A program made the position numbers and the translations under genes. A DNA stretch of 64,000 nucleotides from assembly GCA_051294905.1 (NCBI GenBank), contig CM119371.1, positions 16,928,001 to 16,992,000 on the forward strand, written 5' to 3'. The notes below the pieces were generated by a model that was not told the DNA's origin, did no database searches, and was given only the letters and a program-made list of their open reading frames with translations. The DNA is from Botryllus schlosseri (lineage: Eukaryota). Of this stretch, positions 17,041 through 59,518 are shown piece by piece. Within the stretch, counting starts at the first letter, position 1; every line of letters begins with the position of its first letter.

Positions 17041-17789
17041 AGTGTGTGTTGAGTGCAAAACAGTGCTTGATTTTTTCGTTGATACCGTATTAAACTCTCT
17101 TGGATAGAAATCAAAAAACCTAATTTTCGTTGATATATAGCTTGAATCCGCGGATATATAGGCAAGCTTGGGAATAGTCCGCGGGCCAAAAAGGTTGGGA
17201 ATCACTGCCCTAGGGTGTACGACAACCCCGGTTGAAGAGCACTGATCTAGTCTCCTCCTCGCCATCTCATCCGTGTAAGCGGTGTCTTATATAAGCCAAG
17301 AATGTGGGCCGTTGTAGAAGTCGGCCGCTGCGGTATAGAAATGAAGAAAATTGCCTGGTGTAAATGACCATGACCAATGACCATAGTAGTCGACACACAC
17401 CATGAACACCTCAAAACAAATCTGTCGGTGCCGTCAAATCTTCCGGTTTGCAGGGTGCCGTTAGCGAAAAAAAGCTCGAGCATCACTGTGCAAGGGTGCC
17501 GCGGACTATTTTTCATTTACAGAGGGTGTCGCGAGGTTAAAAAACTTGACAACCACTGGTCGGTCTGAATCTGAATTGGCACTATTGCAATCATAATTCA
17601 AAAATCCCTATTGGGAATCGAATATCCAGATGATGGGCTCTCACAATAAAATTCAAATCTGAATGAAAAAAAAACATCTTATAAATCTGAATTTGATAAA
17701 AATTCTAAAAGTGCATTTAAAATTTTGGATTTGATACATCCAGAATCATATGAGGAAAGTACTAATCTGGACTTACTTCCTTGTTTCAT

Positions 17790-26400: not shown

Positions 26401-27209
26401 GCGACCACCCCATAATTGTGTCACGGGGTGGCTTCGCCACCCCGCCACCCCGTAACTCGGCGCCTATGTTGTGATCACATGTATTCCACTCAGCGTAAGC
26501 AGAGAGTTTACGTAACTGATCGCGCCAATGACGAAAATTTTCGATCATTCACAACCGAAGCGGTTTTCTCGCGGCCGAGTTTTGGTCCACCTTTCGGAGT
26601 CCTATGTTTACATAAACTTCATTACGTGTTGCTGCGTCGTGATGCGGTAATGGCTGGCGCCGAAATGCCTATAAATCATGCGTATTTCTCAGAGAAGGTC
26701 ACCTAATAAGCAATACATTTAGGCACACTAATTCGTGCAAAGCGCGAAAATAAATTGAAAAATGCTGGAAAAAGTTTCAAATAAATGCGCTGATTTATGT
26801 TCATTGGCGAAATAATTTTGGGCCCTTTTCAAGCTCGGCCCCTCTCCAATTAAGCGGTTTGGGGTCAACCAGTTACGGTTCTGCACAAAGTAAATGAATC
26901 GAAAACCAATGATCAAACTGCGCTGTTTAGTGATGAGTAAGCTCGTATCTGTTCTGTATTTGTCGCTCGCATGTCGTCAAATAAAACTTCTTTAACTTTA
27001 AGTCAAATCGAACATGATTCCAGCCCTAATGTTACCTCACGAAGTTATGAATCAGTTTAAAATTTGATGTTTTATTTATTTTATCAATGGTCCAGCCTTC
27101 AACATTGCATCTTGAAATTGAAGTATAAAATTGTAATATACCTGGCGGACCGGCAGTAATGTCGTCGCGGACCGGCACCGGTCCGCGGACCGGCGGTTGA
27201 GAACCACTG
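23446..27209. mobile_element. hAT (Buster-like) non-autonomous element with GCGGACCGG subterminal motifs
   Basis: Perfect TIRs CAGTGGTTCTCAACC / GGTTGAGAACCACTG; perfect TSD CCCTAGCC at 23438-23445 and 27210-27217. Confidence 0.95.
24086..26468 (-). mobile_element. Second, inverted copy of the CATAGGC family, nested in 23446-27209
   Basis: Ends TATAGGCGCCGAC / CTCGGCGCCTATG; TTGTGAT on both flanks; ~25197-26468 aligns in reverse with ~1093-2327. Confidence 0.9.
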
Positions 27210-28309: not shown

Positions 28310-29275
28310 CAGTGTTGGGATGACTCGAGTCATGACTTGACTCGAGTCAGACTCGAGTCAACTTTTTCGTATGACTTGACTTGACTCGAGTCACTTTGCA
28401 AAAATGACTTGACTTGACTTGACTTGGAGCTTAAGAAATCTGCATTGACTCGTGACTCGGAGCAAAATTTACGAGTCAATTTCAAGTCATTAAGTAAACA
28501 GTGTTAGGATTGTTCAAGATACGCCGGTGTAACTTGCGAGAGCAACCAGTCATTCACTGATTGTACGTCACACTTAACCTCCATCGTTACATCACAAATA
28601 AATTGACCGCAAACGAAACGATTACAGTTTACGTTGTCGTACCAGTAGTAGATTATTCTAATAGCAACATGTATCTGTTTCTTAGACGGCTCATTGCTTA
28701 CGTTGCGCATTGTTCAGTTTTGCCAACCCTCTTGTATGATTTGAATCGAACAAATATAGTCTGTGCGTTTATATTCTTACGGATGTGTAGATGGGTAGTG
28801 TAGGCCATTGTACCAAATCCATTTGTTTCAACTTTTCGTGGCTTCGTATTCGATCCTATATTTTGGCTGATAATAACTGACTGTAGCATATAACTGTACA
28901 GCTACTCACGTATTATAATAGCAGTTCTACGTTTGCGTGGGAGATGTAACGTCTTTTTGCATGTTTATTCAACTTTATATTCGTTATTTGACTCAAGATA
29001 AATGGTCAAATAATCAGTCTTTCACACACCTAGCAAAATGAAATGACTTTGAATCATTACTCATACTTCGAAATTCAATTTGACTTGAATTGTGACTTGA
29101 CTCGTGACTTGACTTGACTTGACTCGACTTGACTCGAGTCACCTCCAAAAAACGGGTGACTTGACTTGACTCGAGTCACCTTCGAAAATCGATTGACTTG
29201 ACTTGACTCGAGTCAAAATGTGCAATGACTCGAGATGACTCGTGACTCGAAGGTAGTGACTTGATCCCAACACTG
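28310..29275 (+). mobile_element. CAGTGTTGGGAT-family MITE, copy 2
   Basis: Same TIRs and GACTT arrays as copy 1; perfect TSD CTAATATG at 28302-28309 and 29276-29283. Confidence 0.95.
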
Positions 29276-29503
29276 CTAATATGCCACCAATAATGACTGT
29301 TGCCCAACTTGTATACATCTTTAATTGTACGTCCGAATATCCAGGCGCATTAATGTGGATGGAAACGAAATCATATTGACATTTAGTGTCATATAGACAC
29401 ACATATATAGTCTAATATCGTCCAACACCATTCACTAAATTCCATCATGCTATCGTATTGCTCGTTATGGTAAACAGTCCACGCATGCACGCGTAAAGCT
29501 TAC

Positions 29504-38308: not shown

Positions 38309-38936
38309 CATTAGTGTCCTATATGGTGTCGATACGAGCAAATCTCACGGCTCAGTGAAATTGATTCACGTCACAGTTTCCATTTGGCTACAGGCAATTT
38401 GACGGTCATTTTTGACCGGCTTGCCGAGCATTAGATTGGGTAAAACGGATATCAATCGAAAGCTGACTCTGCAATGATTACGAAAATATAAATTTTATTC
38501 CGCTCGTGGCCCTGGAACTCCCACAATCAGTCTCGAATATTTCATTGTTATGGAGATTGGCATTTGGACGCAACAATGCTGTCTGGCGAAGCGAGAGAGT
38601 AGCTCAGGACGCAGCAATGCTGTCTAGCAATACGAGAGATTAGCTCAAGAGAAAAAGAGCCAGACAGCATTGTTGCGTCTCAATGCGAATCTCCATAACA
38701 ATGAAAAATTCGAGGCTGATTGTGGGAGTTCCAGGGCCAAGAGCGGAATAAAATTTATAATTCCGTAATCAATGCAGAGTCAGCTTTCGGTTGACACCCG
38801 TTTTACCAAAATCTAATGCTCGACAAGCTGGTCAAAAATGACCGTCAAATTGCCTGTAGCCAAATGGAAATTGTGACGTGAATCAATTTCACTGAGGCGT
38901 GAGATTTGCATTGTCGACACCAAATAGGACTCTATG
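38309..38936. mobile_element. Foldback (palindromic) MITE
   Basis: Arms ~38309-38587 and 38659-38936 are reverse complements at roughly 90% identity by eye, around a 71-bp spacer; flanks GGTGATAC and GGGATAC. Confidence 0.9.
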
Positions 38937-40821: not shown

Positions 40822-41754
40822 CAGTGTTGGGATGACACGAGTCATGACTTGACTCGAGTCAGACTTGAGCAAACTTTTTTGCATGACTTGACTTGAATCG
40901 AGTCACTTTGCAAAAATGATTGACTTGACTTGACTCGGCGCTTCAGAAATGTGGATTGACTCAATTTCAAGTCATCTAGTAAACGGTGTCGATTAAATCG
41001 CTGCATCTTGTTTATTTCCGGATTGTTCGCGATACGCCGGTGTGACTTGTGAGAGCAATCAGTCATTCACTGATTTTACTTTTCACTTATCCTCCATTGC
41101 TACATCACAAATAAATTGACCGAAAACGAAATGATCACAGCTTACGTTTATGTACTAGCTGTAGAATAATTTAATAGCAACGTATCTCTGTGTGTTAGAC
41201 GGCTCAGTGCTTACATCGCGAAGTGCCTACCTTAGCCAATCCTCCGTATGATTTGAGTCGAACGAATATAGTTTATGCGTTTATAATCTCAAGGATGTGT
41301 GGATGGGTAGTGTAATGTACCATTTCAATTTGTTTCAACTTCTTGGCGCTTCGTATTCGATCCTCTATTTTGGCTCACGTATTTTATCAGCAGCCCGAAG
41401 CGTGTGTGAGAGATACAACGCCTTTTTGCACGTAATACTCGGTAATTGATTCAAGATATATCAATAATCAATCTGTCATTCACACAGCTAGCAAAATGTA
41501 ATGACTTTGAATCATCACTCATACTTCGAAAATTCAATTTGACTTGAATTGCTACTTGACTCGTGACATGACTTGACTTGACTTGACTTGACTTGACTCG
41601 ACTTGACTCGAGTCACCTCCAAAAAACGAGTGACTTGACTTGACTCGAGTCGAGTCAACTTCGAAAATCGATTGACTTGACTTGACTCAAGTCAAAATGT
41701 GGAATGACTCGAGATGATTCGAGACTCGAAGGTAGTGACTTGATCCCAACACCG
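40822..41754 (+). mobile_element. CAGTGTTGGGAT-family MITE, copy 3
   Basis: Same termini (right end ...CCCAACACCG); TSD GATAACAC and GATGACAC, 7/8. Confidence 0.93.
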
Positions 41755-42111
41755 GATGACACCGGCCCATGGAGGTTAGCTACTATGGTTTGTGAAAGCA
41801 AATCTATTATATTATCATTTATACAGGTGTTACCAACTATTTGGATGGACTGTACTATAAATTATAAAATGCCTGACTTAAACCTAAATGCTCACCGTAT
41901 GTACGTTGAAATTCTCTCGGTGTGGGATATGTGGAAGATGGCGAATGCATATCTTCGTACAGGTCTTCTGATACTTTACAATGAAAATTGTAAATACCAT
42001 TATATTCTAAGCAGGTAGAATAGATTCAGCCAGAACGATGTTGATATTTTATTTCTAAAATCTATGCACAATGTTTGCGAATCTTGCTAGAAGGAGTGTA
42101 GTTTCTGGAGT

Positions 42112-42773
42112 CGTTTTGTTAATTCGTAGATTTTATAAGCAATTTTTTTCAGTTCAATACACCATGAAAATTGCGATATACATTGAAAAGATAGGAAGAT
42201 GCGGAAACGACTTGGAGTAGTCGTTGAAATCAGACACCCACCATCCCCTAGGGCCGATGTAATGAGGAGGCATACATACTGAATGAAAAGTAAAAGAAGA
42301 TAATATAGAAAAGCAAACGATTAAAATGAGGTAGCATATCACCGATGGCAAGCTCTATATGTCCGGTCGTGGTCCGGTAATCTTGAGGACGGACTATAGT
42401 ATTCATTTACTAGAAATTGCTTGTATTTCGACTTGAATGTGTACAATGTTCGTTGACTGTCGGATAGCCGGCAATATACTGTTCCACGCGTCAGATCCGG
42501 CACATTTTATAGAGCGATGGTTTTTCCGGTCGATCATATGATGTTTGGACGACGTGGACGCGCGTGTGTTGTAGGTTGCGCTTTTGATTTCGATGTAAAG
42601 AAGTGATCGAAATATTCGGGCAATGACCGAAGTGGAACTGATACAATGAGTTGACGATTTCTAGTTTTCCGCATATCATTTATGTTTAGGACACCAAATC
42701 TCTTCAGCAGCGACTTGTAGGATGGACAACCAGGCCCCTTCGTGGCCCAGCCGCGATACCGAGTACCTTATGT
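42112..42773 (-). mobile_element. 5'-truncated CR1/L2-like LINE fragment (ORF2 C-terminus plus 3' UTR)
   Basis: 15-bp direct repeat TGTAGTTTCTGGAGT at 42097-42111 and 42774-42788; minus-strand frameshifted remnant LLKRFGVLNINDMRK..LYQFHFG..LPEYFDHFF..WNSILPAIRQST..FKSKYKQFLVNEY resembles CR1-group ORF2 tails. Confidence 0.75.
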
Positions 42774-43292
42774 TGTAGTTTCTGGAGTAGCTCAAGAGCA
42801 GTTTTACTGGCAGACCCCAACAGAGGACGCCATATTGTAACTTCGATTGGATTAAGGTAAGGATTTAAAGAGTATCAGAAGAACCCAGGTAACAATACAG
42901 CATTAAGGCTGTAGAACAGGGCATTGACCATTAAACAGGGTATGAAAATTCAGGTTTTAGTCAAGCACTCTTCGGCGACATTCTCGCCTTTGTGTCGACT
43001 TCTTTCACGTTGTATGCTATATGCTGCATGCTACCAGAGACAGTGGTCTTATGGGGAACAAATGCTTTCAACATGTTAACTTTCTAACTATGTGCATTGC
43101 CGGGGATTACGGGGTTTACTTTCAGAATTGTCTTTTCTCCAGTTGATTGGCCTAATGGCCGTTTCAGAGAATTAGTTCGTCACCGTGGAGAACGGCAGAT
43201 TCACGTTTAATCCAATACGGAAAAACATACGAAATCTCCAAGTTCTATGAATATCATTGCCAAAGCGCATTTCATACACAATATATTCTTAC

Positions 43293-43358
43293 CGCTGCTC
43301 CGTGGGGATTCTGTTGGAAGAGATGGAAGAGGACGACGGCGGTTTTTGTAATTGAGCC
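43293..43358 (-). other. Candidate small phase-1 exon (Pro/Arg-rich)
   Basis: AAACAG acceptor, G|GTAAGA donor, 66 nt, reads LNYKNRRRPLPSLPTESPRSS. Confidence 0.45.
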
Positions 43359-43713
43359 CTGTTTAATACGGATATGGATATTTATGGTATTTTATATATT
43401 AAACATATCCGCAAGACTTCTTATTTACAAACAGCATCGCGAATACCATGCGCAATGTAATCGATGCATTGATTACACATTATTATCGGAAATCAATTAG
43501 TTATCAAATCTATTATGATGCCGCAGAGTTCCGGTAAACTCGAACACGACTTTTGGGTTGAGAGAAGCTACTCCACTATCAAATAACTTCTCAGCTAATA
43601 TATAAATTTCAAGTTCTGGAATATCAATGTTATTAGGCCATCACATCAAAATTATCCAACAACACAGCAAGTTTAAGTTTAAGTAATAGTCCTGCTATAA
43701 GCTGTATTCTTAC

Positions 43714-43785
43714 CGCTACGCCGCTGAACTCTTCTTGGACGGGTTGGGCGAGATGGCGGAAGGTATGAGGTTTCGATATATTGTT
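43714..43785 (-). other. Candidate small phase-1 exon (Pro/Arg-rich)
   Basis: TTCCAG acceptor, G|GTAAGA donor, 72 nt, reads QYIETSYLPPSRPTRPRRVQRRS. Confidence 0.45.
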
Positions 43786-44717
43786 CTGGAATATCAGGAA
43801 ATATATGTTTTGTCAATGTTGAACACATATAAACTGTATAAGTGTATTATATCCCTGTTCAAATGACAGAATGGATGACAGAATTTTCATAAAGAACCGT
43901 TATGCCCGATGCCATTAATTTGAATTGATTCGCGCATTTATGGGATAGTCGTAGCCCTAGTGTTCGATTTCGCTTTCAGCATTAACAGTATATTCTTTAT
44001 TCAAAGTAAACTGGTAAATAAACACATACCACTGGAAGCAACCTGCCCTGGTTCATGCTCTAGCTCATGCTCCACCCTAAGACGTTCATCCGACTAATAC
44101 CAAATCAAGATTATCTGTAGACGCTTGGGACAGTTAAGGTGGGCAGGAAGCGATGACACGGAATATATAATCTGCAGGACTCCAAGAGTAGGCCTACAAT
44201 GCAATATTCATTTAGCTGCTAACTATACGGCGGCTTTCTGATTAAAATGGCTGTTACCAACATCTTTTCCCAAATTTATCCTTATTCTAAGAACACATCT
44301 TATCTTTTAGAGCACAGTGCTCCTTTAAATTCTCGTTTCGCTGTGGAGGCTGGTATTTGTTACAGGCTGATAGATTTGATTTTGTTCTATAAATGCACTT
44401 ATAGACAAAACTTACTTTTACGGCTACACCTAGATGTAATTATATAGGAAAAGGGTATATTTTCGCACCATTCTCGTAAACTCTCGTTGTGGTCGCGGTC
44501 ATCTGAAGTGATCCGGAAAGTGCTCGGATTGAGTCTGATTTGACATTCCCTTTTACAACTACGAGTTGCTTCTGAAAAGGGCGCGTTGCAGGAAACCATT
44601 AGTTCCCATTTCAACGTAGAAGAGCGCAAAGTTCAGATAGCCGATATCAACAATGTAAATAATACTACTATAGCATATAAAATAATTCGGTTCACAATGC
44701 AACAATGTTAAGCTCAC

Positions 44718-44855
44718 CTTTTCATTACCGGGATTGTCCACGATCATAAGTTTAGCATCTTCGGCTACAATAGTCTTGGGTTCTACAATCGGTGATATCT
44801 CGCTAATAATCTGGAGGACATAATCCAGCGTATGCTTGGTTTTTATGGAAGAAAC
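44718..44855 (-). CDS. Host gene exon (46 codons)
   Basis: GACAG|GTT...AAG|GTGAGC; VSSIKTKHTLDYVLQIISEISPIVEPKTIVAEDAKLMIVDNPGNEK. Confidence 0.6.
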
Positions 44856-44981
44856 CTGTCAGGCATTTGGGATTTCAATATTCCTCTATCATATTTCACG
44901 TAAAAACTCTGGTAATAAAGCAGTATTCTGTTGGCTACATGTCACGAAGTTAACCAATTATCGAACTATAGATTGTAATAC

Positions 44982-45152
44982 CTTGAAATGATTGTTGCTG
45001 ATAACATTCATCGTCTTTGTCCAATGTCTAAGAGCCTCTTCCGGTTCGTTGATTAACAAGCAGTTAGCCTCCAACCCAACTCCGGAATTTAGAACTTTTG
45101 CTATCAATGGATGGTTCTCCAGCGCCAGAATATCAAGCGCCACATTGCTGAC
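44982..45152 (-). CDS. Host gene exon (57 codons)
   Basis: TTGCAG|GTC...AAG|GTATT; VSNVALDILALENHPLIAKVLNSGVGLEANCLLINEPEEALRHWTKTMNVISNNHFK. Confidence 0.6.
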
Positions 45153-45438
45153 CTGCAACGAGATGAGAATTGAATATTGAATTTTATTACATCCACATTG
45201 GCTATTCGAAGCATCTTCATCGTAGCTTGAATGATGCCTGATGGTCCCGCTGCTTATTCTTGCGTATGAAACCCGCGTAGGCTGCTAGGCTAAACTGATG
45301 GCGTTGAAAGTAGGCCCATACCATTCGTATATTTCCTCGGCATTTGAAAATAGTTCGCTACAGCGGATCATTTGCTTTCATAAACTTCCCGATTTTAGCA
45401 ATGCCTCGCAAACATATTGGTCTGGGTAGCCGATGAAG

Positions 45439-45896
45439 CAGTGGTGGCTTTTGGGGTGGGCGAGGTGGGCGGTCGCCCGGGGCCCCCTGGTCGAATCCCC
45501 CCCCCCCCCTATTTGGATGATGCGCTTTTTTAAAGGATTATAACGAAAGAACATGGAAATCCGTGCACCAAGCAAGAATATAATTCCGTACAGATGTGTC
45601 AATCATCATGAAATTTCTGCATTTGTTAGGAAAGTTCCGTATCCCGATAATTATCACGTCTGTGCATGTGGTAGAATTGATTAGTTTTGATGTATTCTAT
45701 CCTTTCACACATGCAATAATCGACATGGCCGAGTCCAGCACCTGCCCGAACCTCACCGCGGTTAAAGAGAGATAATATTAGGAGATGCGAAAGGGGGGTC
45801 TGGGGGGCGGAGGCCCTCAGCAGTTACGGTTAGATGCTTATAGGGGCCCCCGGTAAGTCTCGCCCAGCCCCCCCCCCGTTCGTAGGGCCACCACTG
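45439..45896. mobile_element. hAT-type MITE with GGGCCCC subterminal motifs
   Basis: TIRs CAGTGGTGGC / GCCACCACTG; TSD CGATGAAG and CGAAGAAG, 7/8. Confidence 0.85.
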
Positions 45897-46218
45897 CGAA
45901 GAAGTATATTGTCCCTACATTATGACTAAGCACTCTCAAGCTATACCTGCGACAAGTAGTTCGAGTCATCATTTCCCGTCATTAGATCGGTTGCGATTGT
46001 TTCAATATCTTCTCGTGTCCCATGAACAGCCAATGCCTCTATTCGAAGATCCTGCATTCGTTATTGCGCATTTGTTGTTGTTACAGATGTGGAGTAACAT
46101 AGGAATTCAGTCCACAAGGATTGGTAACTCAGCTAATAGATTCGGAGGATTACTACAATGCTGTTTCGGCGATATAAATAACCTCATTTACGGCTATGTT
46201 TATTATTCTAATTGTAAT

Positions 46219-47026
46219 CATTGTTGAGTCGACTCGACTCATTAATTGACTCGATTCAGACTAGAGTCAACTTTTTCAGATGACTTGACTTGACTTCACT
46301 CGGCATTTCAAAAATGTGGATTTACCCGTGACTCGAAGCAAAATTTTCGAGTCAATTTCGAGTCATTAAGTAATCGGTGTCGACTAAGCCACAAGATGAT
46401 ATGACCTGTGTTGGCAACCAGTCACTCAAAGATTGCGCAGCAGGTATTACAGAGCTGCCTGCGGTATGTCAAAAATAAATTGACCGTAAACGAAGTGATT
46501 AGAACTTACCTTGTCGTAGACTAGTAATCTATCGATAGCAGTGTAATTATGTTCCATAGACTGCTAAGTGCTCACTTCAACGTACGTATAGTATATTTTA
46601 AATCGAGGGTATATAGTTTTTCATTTATATTACTTGTCAACAATATGTGAAGTCTTAAATTGTATCGCATGGAAGTTTAGGTGACTATTCTAACATCTAT
46701 TTGGTTGGCAGTTACGTATACGTACCTACGTATATGTGAGCAATTCAACGTCTCGCTGAAGACATAATTAAGTCGATGTTCGATGATTCTTGATTCAGAA
46801 TTAACAGCGACTCAATCTGTACTTCAATCATCTTGCCAAAAGCAATCACTAGAATCATGCCTCGTGCTTCGAGAACCCGACATGCCTTTGTGATTTGACT
46901 GGTGACTTGACTCAAATTGACTTCCAGTCACTTAAAAAATCATGTGACGTGACTTGACTCGAGACAAAATATGCAATAACTCGTTATGGGTTGTGACTCG
47001 AAGTTAGTGTCTTGATCGCAACACTG
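46219..47026 (+). mobile_element. CAGTGTTGGGAT-family MITE, copy 4 (most diverged)
   Basis: Degenerate termini CATTGTTGAG / ATCGCAACACTG; shared internal AAATAAATTGACCG.AAACGAA block; flanks ATTGTAAT and ATTTAAAT. Confidence 0.85.
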
Positions 47027-49706
47027 ATTTAAATTTAAAAAAACGGAAATGGTAATTACAATTATGTCAGTCCCTTCATTAGCTGACCTTGTATCGCAGT
47101 GTGATATCATGGAGCGCGTCGATTTGTTCTGTTGTTTTCTTCCTTATTGCAGCCAGAGTCGCGTCCTGGAACACACATGAATATTTCAGGCGAAATACTT
47201 GTTCGGAGTTTATTCTTGTGGAAATGGATGTTGAATACCCGCATATAAAGTTTCTCCCGTGGATTCACATTTATGGTTTCCATGAATATCGAAAAGGATT
47301 GTCACCACCTCGTTCTACATTAGCAGGAATTATTCATCACATGATAGGGTAGCCTACTATTTCATTTGATTCGATGAGTGGGAAGAGCATCCCCGCCAAA
47401 GCTTTTACATATTTTCTCATAGTTTTTCCACAAAAAATATGTCAATTTGAGTTATATTAATTACTCGTACGCTTCTGCTACTGTTGAAAATTAAGTAGGC
47501 TACAGAACGGAATCGGTGCAATGACTGCATAACAATGTTTTCAATTCTATATGCTGATCAGATTCCTTTGAATATTCAATTTTGTGAAATCAACGCGAAT
47601 GGTGCTGAGTTCATACTTTATTCCTAACAACGGAACATTTTTACCAGGAAAGTTTTGCGAAGTTCCGATAATTACCTCACTTTTAGGTTGGCTTAGCTAA
47701 AACCTACAGTGACTCTCCATCCAGCCCCGATTAATTAAGATAAATCATTATTCATGCGTACTTAACCGGACTATCGCAATCAACGTTAGTATGGTGCGAT
47801 ATAGCACAAACCAGAGCAGTTTGGGCTTAAGTTACATCCAGTGATCATTAATTCAAGGTAAATGTTGAATATAAAAAGTTTTACACAATTAGCGGCAGAG
47901 ACTAAGATCAATAGATGTACAATGTACTGTAAATCTGCATATATAGGGGTGAAAGTTTCATGTATCTAGCGTGGGACTATACTTGTCGAGTCGATGATAC
48001 CTCAGTGGTTCCTACACCGGTATAAAATATACATAGAATCGGCCGTTATTAGGGAATAAGTATTCCGCAAATTTTGTCACGCCAGTGGTATGCTGATACT
48101 ACTGGTCAATATAGTAGTGTCTTGAATTCCCATGTGAATTCACTAGCCCTATCATAAGACCGCCACAATTTTTTATAGCTTCGACTCATTCTTGGCTGCG
48201 TCTTTATTAGGATTATATTGAAATGTTTCTTTATCATGTATGCAGTGTGAATCAGTGCATACTATGCACTGATTCAACCATTGTACTATATGTGTTGGAG
48301 GTGTATCTGGACTCGTCACCTCAGATCCCGCTGCAAATGTAGCTTCTCGAAACCGCGCAGACAGAGTACAGGATTGGACATTGGCTATAACAACCCAGCT
48401 GGTAAACTAAATGAAATATTCCACCTAAAATAGCCAAACATGACATTACAGTTCGATATAGCTGGAAAATGTCGTCTTGGCTGTATTTCTTGTCATTGTA
48501 GCTCCAATAATGAAGTTGTCCTGCTAATTTCGTACTGCTATATGTAGCCTAAGTCATATTTTTAGGAGAGAATATTGTAAATCTCACTTACCATCAATAC
48601 TTTGTGCATATATTCGTCCGTCATTCCGCTAAGCTTTTCACGAACGTCATCCCGGCTAGCTTCGATTTGACATTGCTCAACTTCAACCACTTTCGGACAA
48701 AATACCGCAAGGGTATCCAAGACGCTTTTCAAAGCTGCCACCGTGATGCAGTCGATCTTGGCGTATAATCCTTCCTGAAATTCCACATCAATAATGCTAT
48801 TCCTCTGACTCCGGAAGGACGGGGACTTGAATCATTATCCTGATTAGTATGAACGACATCACAGTAACCACGATATGATCAAGATAAAACGACTATCCTT
48901 ATAAGAGTGATCCATTTCAAGACGAGCTACTAATCAAACGGCAGGGAGATATATAGAGTTCCTGTCTTTTCATAAGGTATTTTGGCCAAATATTATTTGA
49001 ATGGATGTCATAATAAATGATTAGCATGCAGTGAAAACGTGGTAACTATACTGTGGGTTCAAACACCAGAAGGTTTATTTTTCTGGTGAACATTGACTTT
49101 CATTGATGGTTCACTGCAGTAAAGCAGCAGTAGCCGTGACCATATGCATAAGATACCGCCACTAGGCTACTCTACGCGAATAACATTCGCGATTCCACTC
49201 TTGCGAGTAATCAGCAAGTATAGCCGTGATCAAATGACTCAAAACATTGTTTACAACCGAGATTGCGCGTAATCCTAAGTGGAATTCGGTAAAATGACCA
49301 TGATCTTTGTGGATGCATTGCATAGTTTATTTACTGATTCTGTTAAATTTCATTTATTTCCGCCTATTGGAGTAGTGATTCATTGTAAGTTTTTATTCAT
49401 CGAATCTTACTCAAAGATGTTCCGGCTTCGCGGAAATGTTAGCAGTTCGCAGTTAGATACCAAATTCGTATTCTGAATGCTAAATCTGAATTATCAAGAG
49501 CTGAAATACCGAAATAACAGGATGTGAGGCGAACATACGCATCATGTGTTACTTTCCAGTAGGACTGAGGGGCTCAGAATCTTGGGAAAAGCGGGATACT
49601 TGATGATTTTCTATCTCTAATTACACCTCAACGATTAAAAAGTCTTTCCAAGTCAAGTTTCATCATTTCATGATAGTCAGGACGTGTGCCATCCCGACAC
49701 TGACTA

Positions 49707-50310
49707 CAGGGATGGTGCGAACCAGTGATGAGCGGACAGTGCTTTCGAGACTCCGAATCTCTCCGACAACTTTAGTGTCTGAGGAAAACTCCCTCCGACT
49801 CCGAAGAGTTCAATTCCAGACTCCGAGATACTTCGATGAATCTCGTCAAGTGTCCGAAACAGTGGCAAGCATGGTACACTTGGTAATGTGTTTTACATAA
49901 TTAATGTGATAATAGGGTTGGCCTCATAGTATTGTCTACTCTCCAGTCCCCAATTGCAGTGCAGATGGCTGTTTTGATGCACTTGGCGATATATTACAAC
50001 TTTGCAAGGTGTCAACTGTCTGTGTTTTGGTTTGTAATCATAATCAAGAGTGTATTCTGGTAAGAGCTATCCGAAGATATCGGAGACACGAAGTTACAAT
50101 ACTCCGAAATTATCCGGAAAAATATCTGTAGTAAATTCCGACTCCGCACCGACTGTCGCAAAATCGGCAAAACTCCGCTCCAAATCCACTCCGACTCCGC
50201 TCCGATGATCATCACTAGTGCGAAAGTGAGGCTCACGTTTCGCTTCGGTGTTCGAAACACAGAAATTTGGACGTTAGCGTTCGCAAACAAACCCCGGTAT
50301 GTACTCCATT
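49707..50310 (-). mobile_element. Inverted terminal fragment of the TAGGGATGGTG family, interrupted by 49723-50217
   Basis: After removing the insert it matches the reverse complement of ~58085-58181. Confidence 0.7.
49723..50217. mobile_element. hAT-type MITE with ACTCCG repeats
   Basis: Ends CAGTGATGA / TCATCACTA; TSD GTGCGAAC (49715-49722) and GTGCGAAA (50218-50225). Confidence 0.85.
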
Positions 50311-51987
50311 ACATTGCGTACCTTATATAGGAAATACAATTACCTAAATACTTCAACAATTTGGTTGACATTAACTCCATTTTAACTTCGAACTACTTTA
50401 TGCATGGCGCTGACACGGTAAGGGGTGAAATTATTCAGCACTAAACTAAAATTAACTTTGCCAGTTTCAAATAAATATATTCGTCGTATTAAAAACATTT
50501 GAATGAAATGTCTGACTTTTCCGTTTGTTATATTTTAGACCGTCCACGGTCATTGCTGCTATAGCTTGGCCCGTAATCACACAACATCACGAACACTATG
50601 CGTAGGACGATAGACAGTCATATATTGATAGTGACAAATCATTTACCAATTAAACATAATTGACGAAGAGAGCGTATCGTTGTTTGAAGTAAAAGTTACG
50701 TTTGTTCAATGTGCAATGTGCATGTATAAGCATTCAGATATGTGAGGACTTCAATGTCCTTCGGACTGAGGTATAATGCGCTTTACAATTAGGGTTGCAT
50801 TTCAAACACAAATAAATTTGAAACAAACATGATTAAAACATGTTTTTATTGTTTGTTTTTTTTAACTAATGACGTCACGAATATTCAATATTCAATATAC
50901 GGCGTCAGTACAACCCCTGTAAGGTTCAGTAAATATTGTCCATATGCATGCAGCGTAACTGTGATGTTGGGCTGGTAATCGAACCAAGAGTGATGTACAC
51001 AATTCGTATCGTAACCGTTAGACTTATATCGCCTGCATGCATGGCATTGACAACCGAGACGCGGATGGTCAGGTGGAGCATTAGCACCAATGTGCCCTGC
51101 ACCCTGAGGCAAACGACAGACACGTCATACGCTTATAATTCAACATTAATTATTATTATTATATACTTTGAAAGATTTAGGATTGTACATAACACAATCT
51201 TGATTTCTCGATATAAAATGTATAGTGGCGGCAACGGAAAGCGCAGTGAAGCGGTTGTTATTGAGTGCTTTAAATATAACTTTTTCTTTTCGATATGTAA
51301 ACTATATTACTAAATTCTAATTACTCAATATCCAATTCAAATTTGTTGATTATAGTCACACCCATCCACAATATCACTTTATGATATTTTTTGCAAACAG
51401 GACTTAACTTTGATATCGGATATAAATGTATCTTCCAACTATATTGAAGATCTAGGCCTCAAGGACTTTAAAGATTCAAAAATCCCAATAAATTTTAAGC
51501 CTTACATTGTGTTCGCCAGAACATCTCCCAGTTCTGAATTCGAAATCATCTTGCTGTACACCTTGATATACCATCTCTCCAATATGGCCACTAAGTAGCA
51601 GCTTATCGTAACCTTGGAAGAGTTCAGCGTCAAATATGGCTGGTACTTGCAGCGATGATATCTGGAAAATATTCCATATTCGTTGATAGCTCATGAACTC
51701 AAGCAGGTGGAACTGGGCGCTAGCATTGACAGCGCTACTTCAACATGTTCAAACGACGTGTCCACGGATCTGATCTCAAAATTGCATGTATCTCCCTACT
51801 AGGGATGGTGCGAACCCCTGAAAGGTTCAGGTTCGTGTGAACGCGAACCTTTTTGAAAGGTTCTCTGTGAACGCGAATGTGCTAATTCCAAACCTAAATT
51901 TCAGTGAAGTGATATATTAATCTCGGCTACACGAAACCTAGCGACGTCTTAGGCCTCATTATGCCACAATGGTGAAGTACTCGCTGA

Positions 51988-52047
51988 AGTTTTAAACTTC
52001 ACCAAATGCATCGACTGGAGCAATCAAATGTTATAATAACACCATAA
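51988..52047. repeat. 60-bp perfect direct repeat flanking the copia element (second copy 57040-57099)
   Basis: AGTTTTAAACTTCACCAAATGCATCGACTGGAGCAATCAAATGTTATAATAACACCATAA abuts both outer LTR ends. Confidence 0.97.
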
Positions 52048-52328
52048 TGATGAACGATCTATCTTGACCTGATCCGTCGAGGCTTTAGATATATCTTCAA
52101 TCGAATTAAATTTATTTTACAGAAGCAGATAATCTGTTCTTACAGCAGCAAGTAGCATCCAGCGTAGACAACACAGGCAAATTAACAGCAAGCACTAGCG
52201 AACACACAAACGCATTTATACTCCACGTCTTAACCTAACAATCAAACAATCATTGACCTAATCAAATGAGAGAAACAGAAATACTAAATGAGAGTTCACA
52301 GGTCATAAGTAATTAAAGCTTCGCAACA
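52048..52328 (-). repeat. 3' LTR
   Basis: 281 bp; one mismatch seen versus 56759-57039 (ACTCCAC vs ACACCAC). Confidence 0.97.
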
Positions 52329-52339
52329 CTCCTTCTCTT
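52329..52339 (-). promoter_or_regulatory. Polypurine tract
   Basis: AAGAGAAGGAG on the minus strand immediately before the 3' LTR. Confidence 0.9.
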
Positions 52340-52356
52340 ACGACATGCAGTATCTC

Positions 52357-55300
52357 TCATTCAAGAATACGAGAAATTCCGATTTGCTCCCTCAAATTGC
52401 AGAAAGACTGTCGACGTAGCGGCTTTGTAAATATGTCGACAAGCTGCTTTTCAGTCGGAACGTATTGGATGTCAATCTTGTTCGCATCGAGTTCGTCTCG
52501 GATATATCCAAATTTCACGGCTATATGTTTCGTTGCTTGGTGATTAACCGGGTTTCGGCACATCGCGATCGCGCTTTGGTTGTCTTCAAAGATGGTGATC
52601 GGTAGTTTGACGCTATTCCCCATCTCTTCAAATAACTGACGAAGCCATGCGGTCTCACGAGCGGCGAGATTCAGTGCGATAAATTCTGCTTCGGCTGTGG
52701 ACTGCGCCGTTACTGATTGTTTCTTTGATCTCCAACAAATTGGAGCATTTCCCATCAAGATAATGTACCCCGAGGTCGATTTCCTGTCATCACGGTCACC
52801 ACCGAAATCGGCATCTGCAAAAGCTGTAATAGTGTTAAAACCACTCTTATAAGTTATACCGTAATCAACAGTTCCTCGAATGTAACGCAATAAATGTTTA
52901 ATCATTTGCCAATGATATACGGTCGGATCACTGTTGTATTGTGCTAGTTTAGCCACTGCGAACGCAATGTCGGGTCGAGTATACATCGCCAGATAAAGTA
53001 GACTCCCAACAGCAGTTTGATATTTCGACGAATCAAACCTTTTGTCTGTCGGTTTAGCTTTCTCAATCACTGCTCCCGAATCCATTGGAGTAGACACAGG
53101 CTTACACTCGGACATTCCGAATCGTTCCAGCACACTTCTTGCATAACAATCTTGTCCGATCCAAATACAATTACCTGTCTGCTTGACACGCATACCAAAA
53201 AAATGGTGTAACATACCCATATCTTTGACATTGAACATCTTTTGCAAAGTAGACTTCGTCTTCGCAATTACTTTCTTCGTTTTTCCCCCTAAGAGTATAT
53301 CGTCAACGTAGACAGCCAATTGTACGACTGCATCGTCGTAAACGCCACTGTAAATACAAGGATCAGATTTCGTTTGTTTAAAGCCCACCTTAATCAATTC
53401 CTCGTGCAGAGCTTGATTCCAGCATCGCGGTGATTGCTTCAAACCATATATGGACTTTCTCAAGAGACACACCTTATCCGCTTGTCCTTTCTGTACAAAG
53501 CCTTCGGGCTGTTTCATATAGATAGTCTCGTCTAATCTACCATGTAGAAAAGCGGTTTTGACGTCCATCTGATGTATTTCCATATTTTCTTCGACTGCCA
53601 ATGCAACATACGCTCGAAATGAACTTGCATGAACGACAGGCGAAAACGTTTGTTCGTAGTCTTTTCCGTATCTCTGGGTATTCCCAAGTGCTACAAGTCT
53701 TGCTTTGGCACGCGTCGCGTTTCCATTTTCGTCGTATTTATACTTGAGACCCATTTATTCCCCAAAACCTTCGCATCGGTTGGAGGATTAACAAGATCCC
53801 ACACTTTTAAATCTTTCATCGATGTGATTTCTTCATTTGCAGCCTCTTTCCACATATCAGAGTGCTCTGACTGGAAGGCTTCTTTCAAGTTTTTCGGTTC
53901 ATTCAACTGATGAACTGCTGCGTGTATCGCATAAGTCAGCACTTCTGTGTCTTCGGTTTGCTCGAAATTCTCATTGTAAGCAAGTCTTGGTGGAGGATTT
54001 CCTGCATTCCGTCGCGATGATCGACGCACTCCTTCCACTTGTTCATTCGTCGGCGTTTCTACCAATCGGTTATCCGCTGATTGCTGTTCGTCACTGTTTA
54101 ATGAAGGATAGATGAATGACGATGTAGCACACTCAGGCTGAACTTCAGTCGATTCTCCTTCCTGGCCAAATCGGGATTCATCAAATTTCACGTGTCGCCG
54201 AATCAGAACTTTTTTCCTGTCTTCGGACCACAGACGGTAACCTTTGGATAATAAGTCATAACCGATTAAATTGCACACTTCAGCTTTCGGATCAAGCTTT
54301 TTCTTCCTTTTACTTTTCTCTATGAAGGCATAGGCTTTACATCCAAATATTCTCAAGTGTCTTACATTCGGCCTAGTCCCATGATAAGCTTCAAATGGAG
54401 TTTTGTTGTTGAGAGCGACGGTTGGACTTCTGTTCTTCAGATAAGCGGCTGTCAATATTGCTTCCGCCCACAAAAAACAGGTAATTTTGCACCGTGAAGC
54501 ATCGCAGAAGCTCTCTCGCAGAGAACTCGGTTCAAGCGTTCCGCAACTCCATTTTGCGAAGGGCATGACCGTACAGACTTCTCATGTCTGATGCCTTTTT
54601 CTTTCAACCATGATTCGCATTCATTGCTCACGTATTCTCCGCCATTGTCCGTGCGTAGCCTATACATCCAACTGACTGACGTCGAACTTTTTCTTGGTTT
54701 AAAACGAAAAATTTAAGTTCAGCGAACACATCGGACTTCCGTTTCAGAGGTATCACCCACGACATTCGACTGTAATCGTCAGTAAACGTTAGAAAGTATT
54801 TTGAACCACCTTGTGACTCTGGTGAAATGGGTCCACAAACATCTGAGTGAATCAATTCCAACGTCCTTGTTGCACGGCGTTCAGATCGTTTCGGGAATGG
54901 TAACTTTGTGGATTTCCCCAATGCACACGGTTCACAAAAATTCATGTTCTTCGACTCAGTCAACTTCAGGTCGTTAACCATATTCTTCGCAACCATTTTA
55001 CGAAGATTTTCCTCGCCAATGTGACCAAAACGTTGATGCCATACATCAGCTGATGTGGTACCACCAAAGCACTTTTCGTTTTGTTCATAATCATCAACAG
55101 GATTACTGATATCTTCAAAATTGTTCTTGGACTTTCCACGTCCGGATAAAACTCCTTCTGCACAGCGCATGATTTGAGAGTCTTTTCGATCTAGCTCTGC
55201 ATCATCGGTGTCAGATTCTTCAATGTCTGTACCAGTTGCACCAGTACGAAAGCAATTGATATCACGATTCAATTCGTCATGATCATCATCAGTAAAATCA

Positions 55301-56718
55301 CGAATTCCGCTGTTCTCATTGCTTTTCAACGGTATCTTCATTTCTTCTTTGTTACAAGGTCGATAATCTAACATGTAGAGACCATTTTTCAGCGAACCAG
55401 TTGCAACAATATGACCCTCGTATCGATCCAAAATTCGAAGCTTCTTCGAGTTGAAAGTAACTTCATACTGATGCCTGGCAACTGCAGCTCGAATCGAGAA
55501 TAATGTTGTCGATAGGTCCGGCACATAAAGCGCATTCTGCAAATCTGCAATGCCATATTCTTCGCCATCTCGGAAGATAATTATTCGAAGAGTTCCGATC
55601 CCTTCAGAGTAAATCAGGTTTCAATCGCCTAATTCAATTTCTTCGTGGCAATGTTTCAGGTCGATGAACAATTCTTTCCTGCAACTCATGTGACTAGTTG
55701 CACCACTATCGCATATTACAAATTGTCGATTTCGAGACAAAAATGCTGACGTGTGAAGCAAGTAGTGTCTTTTGACTCCAGAGATTGATTCAACACGTGG
55801 CATGTAATTCTTCGATCCAAGATTCTTGGAACGCACGACGTCAGATGAATAAAACATCGCATGTTTCTCTGATTTCTTAGTACGAGATGCTTGTCTGCGA
55901 CTATTGCCGTTTTCGTCGTCGGCATAGTTAGCACTTTGACGTTGTCGATTTTCTCGGTGTTTCCTGAAATCACTTCCTTTTCCACGTTCACAAGACACGC
56001 GTTTTTCTTCACGTTCTTCATTATTTTCAGGACGGTTCCAACAGTCCGAAATCTTATGACCATACTTTCCGCAATGATCACAATTGCCATGAAATTTCAG
56101 TTTTCCACTCTTTCGTCTTGCATTGTTTCTTGCGTGGTACGCCTGTACAGACTCTTTCGGTCGAATCGATAGATCAGTTTGTACGCGTAGTAACAAATCA
56201 TTCAACGAGAATCCCGGCTTGTTCTGTATCTCATTCAGAATATAGCTTCGAGTTACATCAAGACTAGGAGGCAAGTGCTTGATCACTTCGAAAACTTGGT
56301 CGGTCTCGGCAACGGCACGACCCAAGCTCGCCATCCTTTGGAATAGCATTTGACATTCCTCAATTTTCTCAAGAACGTTCTTTTCCGTGAATGTCGGCAA
56401 CATATCTATCTCCATCTTCAATGTGAGATAAAGCGTAGCATTCTGTGGTTCAAACTTCGCCTTCAAGTCATTCCAAATTTCCTTGGGATCATCGTGGTGA
56501 TCTTCAGGTATAGTTGGTAACACGGATCCACTCAAGTTACAGAGCAGAATTCCTGCGGCTTTCATTTTTCTAGAGGCAGCTCCTTCTGCGGTGTCATTGC
56601 CCATAACACTATTCCACAACTCATTCGCCATGAGGAGGCCTTTCACTTGGACTTTCCATGACGTCCAATTACTGTTTTTACCGCATTTCAGTTTATCTAG
56701 GCTTGAAATTGCTGACAT
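52357..56718 (-). pseudogene. copia gag-pol polyprotein with four lesions
   Basis: Knuckle CDHCGKYGHKISDC; protease DSGATSHM; WHQRFGH; integrase IHSDVCGP, RTDNGGEY, QNGVAERLNR; RT QMDVKTAFLHG, YVDD; RNase H ADADF, AEAEF, EDNQSA, TKHI. Lesions: TGA at 55621-55623, +5 at 54658-54662, -1 in the A-run 54472-54477, -1 near 53748. Repaired length 1452 aa. Confidence 0.95.
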
Positions 56719-56744
56719 TGTGGCTGTAGACACGAGATTAGCAA

Positions 56745-56756
56745 GGGCGCATAACC
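56745..56756 (-). promoter_or_regulatory. Primer-binding site
   Basis: GGTTATGCGCCC two bases inside the 5' LTR, one change from the GGTTATGGGCCC initiator-tRNA-Met half-molecule PBS of Drosophila copia-like elements. Confidence 0.85.
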
Positions 56757-56758
56757 TT

Positions 56759-57039
56759 TGATGAACGATCTATCTTGACCTGATCCGTCGAGGCTTTAGA
56801 TATATCTTCAATCGAATTAAATTTATTTTACAGAAGCAGATAATCTGTTCTTACAGCAGCAAGTAGCATCCAGCGTAGACAACACAGGCAAATTAACAGC
56901 AAGCACTAGCGAACACACAAACGCATTTATACACCACGTCTTAACCTAACAATCAAACAATCATTGACCTAATCAAATGAGAGAAACAGAAATACTAAAT
57001 GAGAGTTCACAGGTCATAAGTAATTAAAGCTTCGCAACA
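56759..57039 (-). repeat. 5' LTR
   Basis: 281 bp, TG...CA, adjacent to the PBS. Confidence 0.97.
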
Positions 57040-58186
57040 AGTTTTAAACTTCACCAAATGCATCGACTGGAGCAATCAAATGTTATAATAACACCATAAA
57101 ATCAACATCTTTCGTCTATTTGCCAGCAATTTCGGCGAGGACTCGCAAGGGGATATAAGCTACACCTAAACGGTCGAGGCCAGATCGGACAATGTATCCG
57201 GCGTCTGACCACTGCTACATTGATATTGCGCAGAATGCAAAAGGGTTTCTATACTTGCTACCGATATTAGTCCGCCCCATATACAAGTTATACAGTGGCC
57301 CATAAGATTCCAATCGCACATATTTTTATTTATTTTTTTTGATACAACAAACATATCAAATCAAGATGCGTCCCTTACGCCAGCTGGAATTTTGACATTA
57401 GGCAACGACGTATTCCTTGTATCACTTCCAATGATTGGTTGAATACTTAATCATCATTCGCTGATGTTGTGTGATTGCGGGTGAAGCTAACAGCAGATCA
57501 ATGTTCCCTATAATTTTTCCAGAGTCTGCGCGCACTAATCAACTCACTGCGCGGTTCCTTGGACAACAGTGCGTGACGACTAAAAGATCAGTCATTACGG
57601 TGATTTGACTGCCGAATTGTCCACTCTTCTCGTTAATTTTGTGGTTCTGACTAAAAAAAGGTCATCACTTCGGCTTTACATTGCCTGTGCGCAGAGACTG
57701 GCGAGCGGCATAGCTTACAGCCATGGTTTACGGCTTGTTTGAAACCAGGCAACGGTGGCTACGCACTCATGCATCATTTTTGACTCTCTGGCGCTATCCT
57801 GGGGGTCAGTCTTGAAAAATGAGAGAAAGAAAGAGATTTTTTAGAGAAAAGTTCGTTTATTTAGTCTTATACAAAACCCTAGACATGTCTTGGGGTGTCG
57901 ATCGAGGGCGGAAACGGTAGATGGATATAGTCCGCCCACTTTTAAACTGAAACAGCCCAGAGTTAACTCTGGCTGAGGTCACGGTATGAATTTGAAAAGT
58001 GATGGTCAGTGTCGCGAAAACTGACCAGATTTCAAAAGGGATAAGGACGTGACAAATTGTAAAACATGAAAAAGGTTCACAGTACAGAACCTACCAAGGT
58101 TCGTTTGTGAACGTGAACCTCTAAATTTGTGAGGTTCACACACGGAAAGCGAACGTGAACCTCACGCTCACACCATCCCTATAGTT

Positions 58187-59518
58187 CAGGGGTTCTCAAC
58201 CCGGGGGGCGCGCCCACCTTGGGGGGCGCGGGAGGCTCTCAGGGGGAGCTCGAGAAATGTTTGTCAATTTTGTAAATGTCTGTATAAATTTGGACTAAAC
58301 ATGTGTTTCACAACCATTCTGAAGAGACGATTATTGAAGATTAAACTTAAGTCGTATTCTAGAAAGCTTGCCAAAGTCAAACTCCAGCACTCGCGCTCAA
58401 CGGAGTATAGGCTGACTACAACTTCATTTGAGCAAATTTTGATATTATTTGAAGATTTAGAGAAATTCCGACGTGCAAGTCATTCATTACTTTATAGCTT
58501 TGGCAGTAGCCTAAATCTCTGTGCGCTAGGTAGCTGTTGTTGATAGCTGGCGATCTGCACTGCCTAAGACTGACTTAAATGCAATATAGGTTGCCCGGTT
58601 TCGGCCTCGATTCGGCTATAAATCAACACCATTTAATTCATTTCCAAAACTGATCGAATTTAGCATTACAGGACAGAACGACACCGTGCTCTCTGTAGTC
58701 ACTACCAGCATCAGGATTATAGTCTCAGTGCAACACACCTTGAAATTAGTTGATGTCCTTTTCAATGTTTTTTTGTTATTTTCAAACAAGTTTGGGGAAG
58801 TTTGTCAGCAACTGGAATGCGGATTCAAAATTGGCGTAAGATATTCCTCATGTATACTATTAGATCAGGGGTTTGCAGCCCGTACGGTAGCAGCCGGCCG
58901 TAGAAGGGAATTTGAGCGGCCGTCGACGACTAATTCAATTAGCATGTGTTAACAGCCGTAGACATGCAAATTGCAATTACGAATTCAGTCCCGAATTCTA
59001 GTGAGATTTTATTTGATCTTGAAATTTTCTTCGCGCTCCGCGCAATTCAACATGACTTCTTTTTTCGATTTAAATGCAGTAGCGCCCTTCTTACTTGGAG
59101 CAAGAATGGGAATCCTCAAGAAATAACAATTCATTCGCGGCTCTTAAACATTTTCGCGCTCCGCGCGACAATATACACTCCCAGCCACTATTCATAACAT
59201 TGCCACTCGCGATTTCAGTGCGTACAATAGGCCGTTGTGAAAAGTAGAATAGTCCGGAGTTCACCGGGAATGGATATGGGCAGTTTACCATAGGTATTTT
59301 GCGTCCAGATCGTTCATTGTGACTATGCCCTGGAATGCGGCCTTATAGGCTACATAAGTAATCGAAATGCGGTCATGATTAGCAAGAAGGTTGCCAACCT
59401 CCGTATTAGATGATGTGCTCTTTTTGAAATGACGATAAATGTAAGGGGGGTCAGGGGGCGCGATTTTTTTTGACCATCGTCAAGGGGGGCGCGTGTCAAA
59501 AAAGGTTAAGAACCGCTG
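58187..59518. mobile_element. hAT (Buster-like) MITE with GGGGCGCG motifs
   Basis: Ends CAGGGGTTCTCAACC / GGTTAAGAACCGCTG; perfect TSD CTATAGTT at 58179-58186 and 59519-59526. Confidence 0.92.
58866..59403 (+). mobile_element. Nested hAT MITE, same family as 62082-62864
   Basis: Perfect TSD TATTAGAT at 58858-58865 and 59404-59411; both ends align with 62082-62864. Confidence 0.88.

What the first reader, a model, noticed from the sequence alone, without database searches (positions are those of the whole stretch)
54651..54670. TAGGCTA 5-bp scar frameshifts the copia integrase: footprint of an unseen TA-targeting element
Seen: the minus strand reads GGA TGT A-TAGGCTA-CGC ACG GAC AAT. Deleting GGCTA restores the frame as ...VGCIRTDNGGEY, so the lesion can be read as TA becoming TA-GGC-TA. 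Established: Tc1/mariner-type cut-and-paste elements duplicate TA and leave a few terminal bases on excision. Inference: an element with GGC...GCC termini inserted here and excised again. No such element is recognisable in the window.
Basis: partly seen in the sequence, partly recalled or inferred. Interest (0 to 1): 0.7.

Follow-up and report, generated by a model that had tools for sequence, protein, structure and literature searches.

The report
Transposon excision scar inside a retrotransposon
Five extra bases in one copy of an animal retrotransposon look like the scar a cut-and-paste jumping gene leaves when it departs, and the same scar word is over-represented nearby, but the element that makes it has not been seen.

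Summary
This copia copy (52048-57039, minus strand) carries five bases at 54656-54660 that sister contigs lack in 4 of 4 runs laid. Its two closest open-frame relatives fit the same register. The site reads TA-GGC-TA where the family has one TA. The word is enriched in the window: TAGGCTA/TAGCCTA 18 against 4.3 expected, first of 32 TA-NNN-TA classes; TAGGCCTA 4 against 0.4. It is not enriched in 424 kb of foreign DNA. A probable decayed second scar lies at 28801. Best reading (about 0.72): the excision footprint of a TA-duplicating, Tc1/mariner-like transposon. GGC...GCC ends are favoured because only they explain TAGGCCTA. The element itself was not found, and no genome was held. The footprint shape is textbook (Sleeping Beauty); I found no paper with this word. 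The scan already noted this scar on another piece of the same genome (e1-7884265). Two side findings: the scars are mostly followed by C, and the copia is flanked by a perfect 60-bp duplication. Interest 0.4.

The parts
54656..54662 (-). TA-GGC-TA word; five of these bases are absent from sister copies (putative excision scar); followed by C on the minus strand
   Evidence: (left out 5 in 4 of 4 runs)
52048..57039 (-). Full-length but broken Ty1/copia LTR retrotransposon copy that carries the scar
56759..57039 (-). 5' LTR, 281 bp, TG...CA
52048..52328 (-). 3' LTR, 281 bp, differs from the 5' LTR at one site (52222)
55621..56769 (-). gag and first part of the protease region (Retrotran_gag_2, Pol_BBD), ended by an in-frame stop
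54628..55620 (-). Rest of the protease region, GAG-pre-integrase and first half of the integrase core (rve); leaves frame at the scar
54479..54658 (-). Second half of the integrase core in another frame (72% identical to P0010 568-627)
52357..53754 (-). Reverse transcriptase and C-terminal region (RVT_2), 62% identical to P0010
51988..52047 (.). Left copy of a perfect 60-bp direct duplication flanking the element
57040..57099 (.). Right copy of the 60-bp duplication
28801..28807 (+). Probable second, decayed scar: TA followed by five extra bases GGCCA that 3 of 3 sister repeat copies lack (one substitution from the scar word)

Best explanation
A cut-and-paste DNA transposon that duplicates TA inserted at this TA in the copia integrase and later excised. 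SHOWN: five extra bases, shape TA-GGC-TA, and a recurrent word in this genome. FROM KNOWN BIOLOGY: Tc1/mariner transposases leave short 3' overhangs of their own terminal bases on both flanks, and end joining fixes these between the two TA copies. INFERRED: the ends are GGC...GCC. Two GGC overhangs can pair over three bases with a central mismatch, giving TA-GGC-TA or TA-GCC-TA. They can also pair through the self-complementary GC, giving TA-GGCC-TA. GCC...GGC ends give the first product but not the second. INFERRED, weaker: the element prefers TA next to C, and has been active enough to leave roughly 10-15 recognisable scars in this 64-kb window. Timing is open: the scar arose either after this copia copy inserted (its LTRs differ at 1 of 281) or in an already decaying parent copy that was then copied.
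For: Sister contigs lack exactly these 5 bases in 4 of 4 runs, reported at the TA-duplication register. The two closest relatives, P0010 and P0121, read QEKVRRQSVECIRSDNGGEY, with Ile directly before Arg, which fits that register. TAGGCTA/TAGCCTA: 18 against 4.29 expected (order-2 Markov), first of 32 classes. TAGGCCTA: 4 against 0.39, first of 136 classes. In 200 simulations, 0 reached 15 and 0 reached 4 respectively. With 3 repeat-family sites and the lesion dropped, 14 against 4.29. Same-composition controls are at background: TACGGTA 7, TAGCGTA 3. The 79 foreign loci (424 kb) show 25 against 24.3. The words expected from GCC...GGC ends (TAGCGCTA, TAGCCGGCTA) occur 0 times, though under 1 was expected. 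The lesion belongs to the most enriched subclass, TAGGCTAC: 13 against 0.89. A second paralog-supported 5-base insertion after TA lies at 28801. Sleeping Beauty's commonest footprints are TACAGTA and TACTGTA (10.1101/659086, section 16).
Against: No element with these ends was seen: the TA-flanked inverted-repeat scans of the window returned only inner parts of other elements. Enrichment shrinks under higher-order models (order 4: 18 against 8.7, p 0.004; TAGGCCTA p 0.04). TAGGCCTA alone is not significant after correcting for 136 classes (p 0.096). A second class, TAAGGTA/TACCTTA, is also enriched (15 against 5.4) and is not explained by this element. Of 18 sites only 3 besides the lesion could be compared with a paralog, and all 3 were not insertions of the word (1763, 59346, 62813). 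Among the 12 indel rows shown (130 hidden), none of the six other scar words in the laid stretch appeared as a polymorphism. A symmetric mechanism does not predict the apparent polarity (7 C-only against 1 G-only, p 0.07). In rice, real excisions are mostly messy (8 of 94 perfect; PMC4423477 passages).
Confidence: 0.72

Rival explanations
1. Same kind of event but another element class or another parse: GCC...GGC ends; an element with AGG...CCT ends entering between T and A with no duplication; or a GG-ended PHIS-type (Harbinger, ISL2EU, Nuwa) or other DDE element.
For: The three gap placements are equivalent, so one scar cannot fix the parse. PHIS groups often begin GG and occur in tunicates (PMC4482050 passages and supplement rows). 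GG ends are unusual for Tc1/mariner (recalled).
Against: Described PHIS duplications are TWA, AT, ANT, CWG, C|TNA|G or none, and no 3-base or AT duplication fits the site. TAGGCCTA is explained by GGC overhangs but not by GCC overhangs.
Confidence: 0.13
2. A chance small insertion (end-joining filler or templated insertion) that happens to look like TA-NNN-TA, with the window's enrichment coming from old repeat families or base-order bias.
For: The copy has several other breaks, so indels are common here. Three of 18 word sites are inherent to repeat families or differ only by substitution. The insertion at 42853 is a plain TAAGG tandem duplication that also reads TA-NNN-TA.
Against: This insertion is not a tandem duplication of five bases and has no template nearer than 285 bases. 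It matches the top-enriched word, and the enrichment survives without this site. A second similar insertion lies at 28801.
Confidence: 0.1
3. An assembly or consensus error in the window.
For: No laid contig was shown to carry the five bases. Run X1 matches unique flanks without a difference, yet shows the family letter in all depth at nearby sites such as 54715.
Against: Contigs drop rare variants of multi-copy families (tool note). A five-base mixed-letter insertion is not a usual sequencing error (own knowledge). It matches a genome-enriched word, and the surrounding 1 kb is about 98% identical to the family.
Confidence: 0.03
4. Telomerase-type or other fixed-template healing that adds AGGCT from a TTAGGC repeat.
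For: AGGCT is part of a TTAGGC repeat; TAGGCTTA occurs 4 times against 1.06 expected.
Against: No TTAGGCTTAGG in the window, and TTAGGC is only 26 against 18. It cannot make the palindrome TAGGCCTA. TTAGGC telomeres are a nematode trait (recalled).
Confidence: 0.02

Closest known systems
Sleeping Beauty / Tc1-mariner canonical excision footprints TACAGTA and TACTGTA (bioRxiv 10.1101/659086; abstract and section 16 read)
   Same: Two TA copies around three bases, net gain of five bases, both orientations present.
   Different: The word is GGC/GCC, not CAG/CTG. It has a 4-base palindromic companion GGCC. It is seen as a natural, recurrent germ-line scar rather than in an assay. The element is not identified.
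Genome-wide excision polymorphisms of DNA transposons in rice (PMC4423477; passages read)
   Same: Excision scars found by comparing related sequences, and treated as a source of small indels.
   Different: In rice most scars are irregular deletions or fillers and the element is still present in the other genome. Here the scar is one stereotyped word and the element is unseen.
PHIS superfamily: PIF/Harbinger, ISL2EU, Pangu, NuwaI/II, Spy (PMC4482050, PMC4122938, PMC9179366; passages read)
   Same: GG-starting inverted ends in several groups, AT-rich targets, members in tunicates.
   Different: The reported duplications are TWA, AT, ANT, CWG, C|TNA|G or none; none is a plain TA.
Ty1/copia LTR retrotransposons (the host of the scar)
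   Same: LTRs TG...CA; order gag, protease, integrase, reverse transcriptase; Pfam copia-type domains.
   Different: This copy is broken in at least four places and is flanked by a 60-bp duplication instead of the usual 5 bp (usual length recalled).

Membership tests
Tc1/mariner excision footprint | One TA in the unaffected allele, two TA copies in the affected one | tested here: met
   sister contigs of 4 of 4 runs lack the five bases; searches support the register
Tc1/mariner excision footprint | Two or three bases between the TA copies, net +5 for a 3-base footprint | tested here: met
   canonical form
Tc1/mariner excision footprint | The same word recurs, in both orientations | tested here: met
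   11 TAGGCTA + 7 TAGCCTA on the + strand; 18 against 4.3; not enriched in foreign loci
Tc1/mariner excision footprint | The middle bases equal the terminal bases of an element in the same genome | tested here: inconclusive
   None in 64 kb; genome not held
Tc1/mariner excision footprint | The maker encodes a DD(x)D/E Tc1/mariner transposase | not testable with these tools
   No element in hand; no host DNA among the 79 loci fetched (best 51% identity)
Tc1/mariner excision footprint | The word is in excess among polymorphic insertions | tested here: inconclusive
   Only 12 of 142 indel rows were shown. Among window paralogs, 1 of 7 distinct 5-base gaps was scar-like (my count)
PHIS (Harbinger/ISL2EU/Pangu/Nuwa) footprint | Duplication of TWA, AT, ANT, CWG or TNA at the site | tested here: not met
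   Only TA is duplicated; definitions
hAT/CACTA hairpin-type footprint | Added bases are an inverted copy of the adjoining flank (recalled) | tested here: not met
   No matching 5-mer on either strand within 285 bases
Ty1/copia LTR retrotransposon (host element) | Integrase upstream of reverse transcriptase, copia-type domains, TG...CA LTRs | tested here: met
Ty1/copia LTR retrotransposon (host element) | About 5-bp target-site duplication (recalled) | tested here: not met
   Only flank duplications of 1 and 60 bases found

The most novel reading that the evidence does not exclude
This genome carries an undescribed, recently very active TA-targeting transposon with GGC ends. It visits sites and leaves so often that its stereotyped scars (about 0.2 per kb in this window) shape the genome's word content and knock out retrotransposon genes. 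The scars are polar with respect to a TAC target, which would record an asymmetric cutting or repair step. The scars would be a countable record of past transposition, independent of surviving copies.
Probability: 0.3. Interest if true: 0.65.

Novelty: new variant of a known kind. Interest (0 to 1): 0.4.

Why it matters
If right, one can count past excisions of a DNA transposon from a fixed 7-8-letter word. That gives a direct measure of a quantity normally invisible (excisions per surviving copy) and of how much small-indel variation transposons make in a highly polymorphic animal. It also predicts an element with unusual ends that a simple genome search should find. The mechanism itself is textbook, and this one scar sits in a retrotransposon copy that is broken elsewhere too, so the single site matters little.

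Tried and rejected
No whole genome was held, so the element could not be sought genome-wide and no sister copy could be read at base level. Window scans for TA-flanked inverted repeats gave three look-alikes, all rejected. (1) 12574-14056 (TA|GCC...GGC|TA) is the inner part of a longer inverted end whose family carries AGGCTAC as consensus. (2) 24086-26468 and its TAGGCGCC relatives begin CATAGG/TATAGG with a 7-base flank duplication. (3) 15133-17207 begins CAGTG with an 8-base duplication CCCTAGGG (my notebook gave slightly wrong coordinates for it). The TAGGGATG...CATCCCTA element around the copia has TA on both sides but also a CAGGGATG variant, so its type is unsettled. A scan of metagenome contigs gave 79 loci, none close; they served as a negative control only. 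No RNA holder was listed, which is no evidence either way. Synonymous against non-synonymous counts on 8 listed family differences gave 4 and 4, too few to date the copy. Rfam: 0 matches in 51000-58500. A TAAGGTA second scar class was considered: 42853 is a tandem duplication and the rest have no common flank. Literature, 10 searches: none listed a paper on a TAGGCTA/TAGGCCTA footprint or a GGC-ended TA-duplicating element. Searches returned 0 papers; two searches returned listings unrelated by title and abstract start. One search listed nothing on long duplications at LTR elements. The library lacks most subscription papers and Repbase Reports, bioRxiv supplements are closed, and the terminal-sequence logos of PMC4482050 Fig. 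1 could not be seen, so absence from print is not shown.

Full report
What is there. The finding lies in a full-length Ty1/copia retrotransposon on the minus strand, 52048-57039. Its two 281-bp LTRs differ at one site. Pfam finds copia-type gag, protease-region, GAG-pre-integrase, integrase, SH3-like and reverse-transcriptase domains in the expected order. The copy is broken in at least four places: a stop at about 55621 and frame changes near 54660, 54480 and 53750.

Is it a five-base insertion? Yes, on three lines of evidence. First, the distance between the integrase motifs HSDVCGP and RTD is 194 nt in the window. In fetched relatives it is 63 residues in 42 of 51 motif pairs (48 of 136 proteins had both motifs), never 64 or 65; 194 is 189 plus 5. 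Second, the two closest open-frame relatives, P0010 (71% over the region searched) and P0121 (76%), read QEKVRRQSVECIRSDNGGEY, matching the window on both sides of the site with nothing in between. Third, contigs from four public runs of four studies and three organism labels, laid on 42000-56758, all show five bases left out at 54656: 141 of 365, 449 of 449, 9.0 of 9.0 and 10.1 of 10.1 depth units, one contig each. I laid 4 of the 24 runs listed. Placements at 54656-54658 are equivalent, and the other placement that would keep the frame (54659) is not. So the family has one TA where this copy has TA-GGC-TA. The added bases are not a tandem copy of their neighbours and have no template within 285 bases. 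Limit: no laid contig was shown to carry the five bases, so the window's own allele rests on the assembly alone.

Is the word more than chance? On both strands TAGGCTA/TAGCCTA occurs 18 times against 4.29 expected under an order-2 Markov model, first of 32 TA-NNN-TA classes. TAGGCCTA occurs 4 times against 0.39, first of 136. In 200 simulations neither count was reached, even with the first lowered to 15. Three of the 18 are not insertions: 59346 and 62813 belong to a repeat whose consensus holds AGGCTAC, and 1763 differs from its paralog by a substitution. Dropping these and the lesion leaves 14 against 4.29, p 0.005 after correction. Same-composition words are at background, and 79 loci from other organisms show no excess (25 against 24.3). 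Against this: higher-order models halve the excess, TAGGCCTA alone is not significant after correction (p 0.096), and TAAGGTA/TACCTTA is enriched too. A second comparison supports the reading: in a four-copy repeat family, one copy has five extra bases GGCCA after a TA at 28801, one substitution from the scar word, which the other three lack. That is 1 of 7 distinct five-base gaps that I counted. None of the six other scar words in the laid stretch (44189, 45286, 47350, 47496, 48545, 49163) showed among the 12 indel rows printed; 130 rows were hidden.

How it most likely works. Sleeping Beauty's commonest footprints are TACAGTA and TACTGTA, three terminal bases between two TA copies (10.1101/659086, abstract and section 16). 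Excision leaves short 3' overhangs from the element's ends (PMC4423477 passage). The lesion has this shape with GGC. My inference on the ends: two GGC overhangs can pair over three bases with a central mismatch (TA-GGC-TA or TA-GCC-TA), or through their self-complementary GC (TA-GGCC-TA). GCC overhangs give the first pair of products but not the palindrome. One thing the symmetric model does not predict: 10 of 15 retained sites read TAGGCTAC (p 2e-4 for the following C), with 7 having C only after and 1 having G only before (p 0.07). The lesion is one of the seven. This suggests a preference for TA beside C and perhaps a polar cutting or repair step; Sleeping Beauty also shows one footprint more often than its mirror image.

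The element was not found. Scans of the window for TA-flanked inverted repeats gave only inner parts or ends of other elements. No genome was held, and the metagenome scan brought no host DNA. The PHIS groups often start with GG and occur in tunicates, but their described duplications are TWA, AT, ANT, CWG, C|TNA|G or none (PMC4482050 passages and supplement search; PMC4122938 passages; PMC9179366 passages). So the scar works like a Tc1/mariner footprint, while membership of the maker in that superfamily is untested. PMC4455052 (passages) gave no table of termini.

Timing. The LTRs look young (1 of 281), yet the interior differs 2.3-2.7% from family contigs (36 of 1352, 60 of 2634, 73 of 3000 in the pieces I took's table). 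That is too much to have arisen since insertion (p 2e-5). Either the scar-maker acted very recently, or a parent copy that was already decaying was copied with its scar, or the LTRs were homogenised. The copy is also flanked by a perfect 60-bp duplication instead of about 5 bp, which I could not test against an empty allele.

Novelty. The footprint type is known. This word, and a natural genome strewn with it, did not appear in ten literature searches, within the limits of that library. The scan's own notes report the same scar on another piece of this genome, with a genome-wide count that I could not check (e1-7884265), and a like phenomenon with other letters in a diatom (e1-7548162). These are leads, not support. 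The label 'sea-squirt-like' for the host comes from that note and was not tested here.

Verdict. Observation confirmed; interpretation supported at about 0.72 as an excision scar of a TA-duplicating transposon, with the maker unidentified. New variant of a known kind; interest 0.4. What this site adds is a clean test in coding sequence with independent sister copies.

Noticed in passing
window 51988-52047 and 57040-57099: The copia element is flanked by a perfect 60-bp direct duplication, with intact TG...CA ends. Weak joints in run X5 suggest the 60-mer belongs to the high-copy repeat into which the copia inserted. It would fit a one-ended integration finished by host repair, as recalled for retroviruses, or an assembly join. 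No empty allele was seen.
   Followed up: partly
window 52048-57039: The LTRs differ at 1 of 281 sites, but the interior differs by 2.3-2.7% from family contigs of three runs. If all of that were post-insertion, about 13 LTR differences would be expected (p 2e-5). The copy probably came from an already diverged or dead template, or its LTRs were homogenised.
   Followed up: partly
scar words across the window: The enrichment sits almost wholly in TAGGCTAC (13 against 0.89), while TAGGCTA followed by G, T or A is near background. All four TAGGCCTA have C next to them on at least one side. Polarity 7 against 1, p 0.07. Unexplained.
   Followed up: partly
window 972-50319, 15 sites: TAAGGTA/TACCTTA is the second most enriched TA-NNN-TA word (15 against 5.4); it could be a second scar family. 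The site at 42853 is a TAAGG tandem duplication that varies within a very high-copy repeat.
   Followed up: partly
window 2726, 3166, 20788, 62705: TAGGCTTA occurs 4 times (1.06 expected), each followed by C; possibly another repair product of the same ends.
   Followed up: no
window 56758-56740 (minus strand): The bases after the 5' LTR read AAGGTTATGCGCCC, close to the primer-binding site of Drosophila copia that pairs with half of the initiator tRNA (recalled, not tested).
   Followed up: no
window 51800-58181: The copia sits between TAGGGATGGTG and CACCATCCCTA ends of a very high-copy repeat (depth about 1e5). No 8-base duplication flanks these ends; TA lies on both sides.
   Followed up: partly
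window 5801-10759: Long ORFs whose translation looks like a non-LTR retrotransposon (zinc-knuckle ORF1, then endonuclease, reverse transcriptase and RNase H motifs, judged by eye), with a frame change near 8500.
   Followed up: no
window 15133-17207; 24086-26468; 38312-38934; 17922-18876, 28310-29277, 40822-41756, 46186-47026: Several gene-less inverted-repeat elements: one with an 8-base CCCTAGGG duplication, one with a 7-base duplication, a 620-bp fold-back, and a four-copy CAGTGTT...AACACTG family with TTGAC microrepeats.
   Followed up: partly
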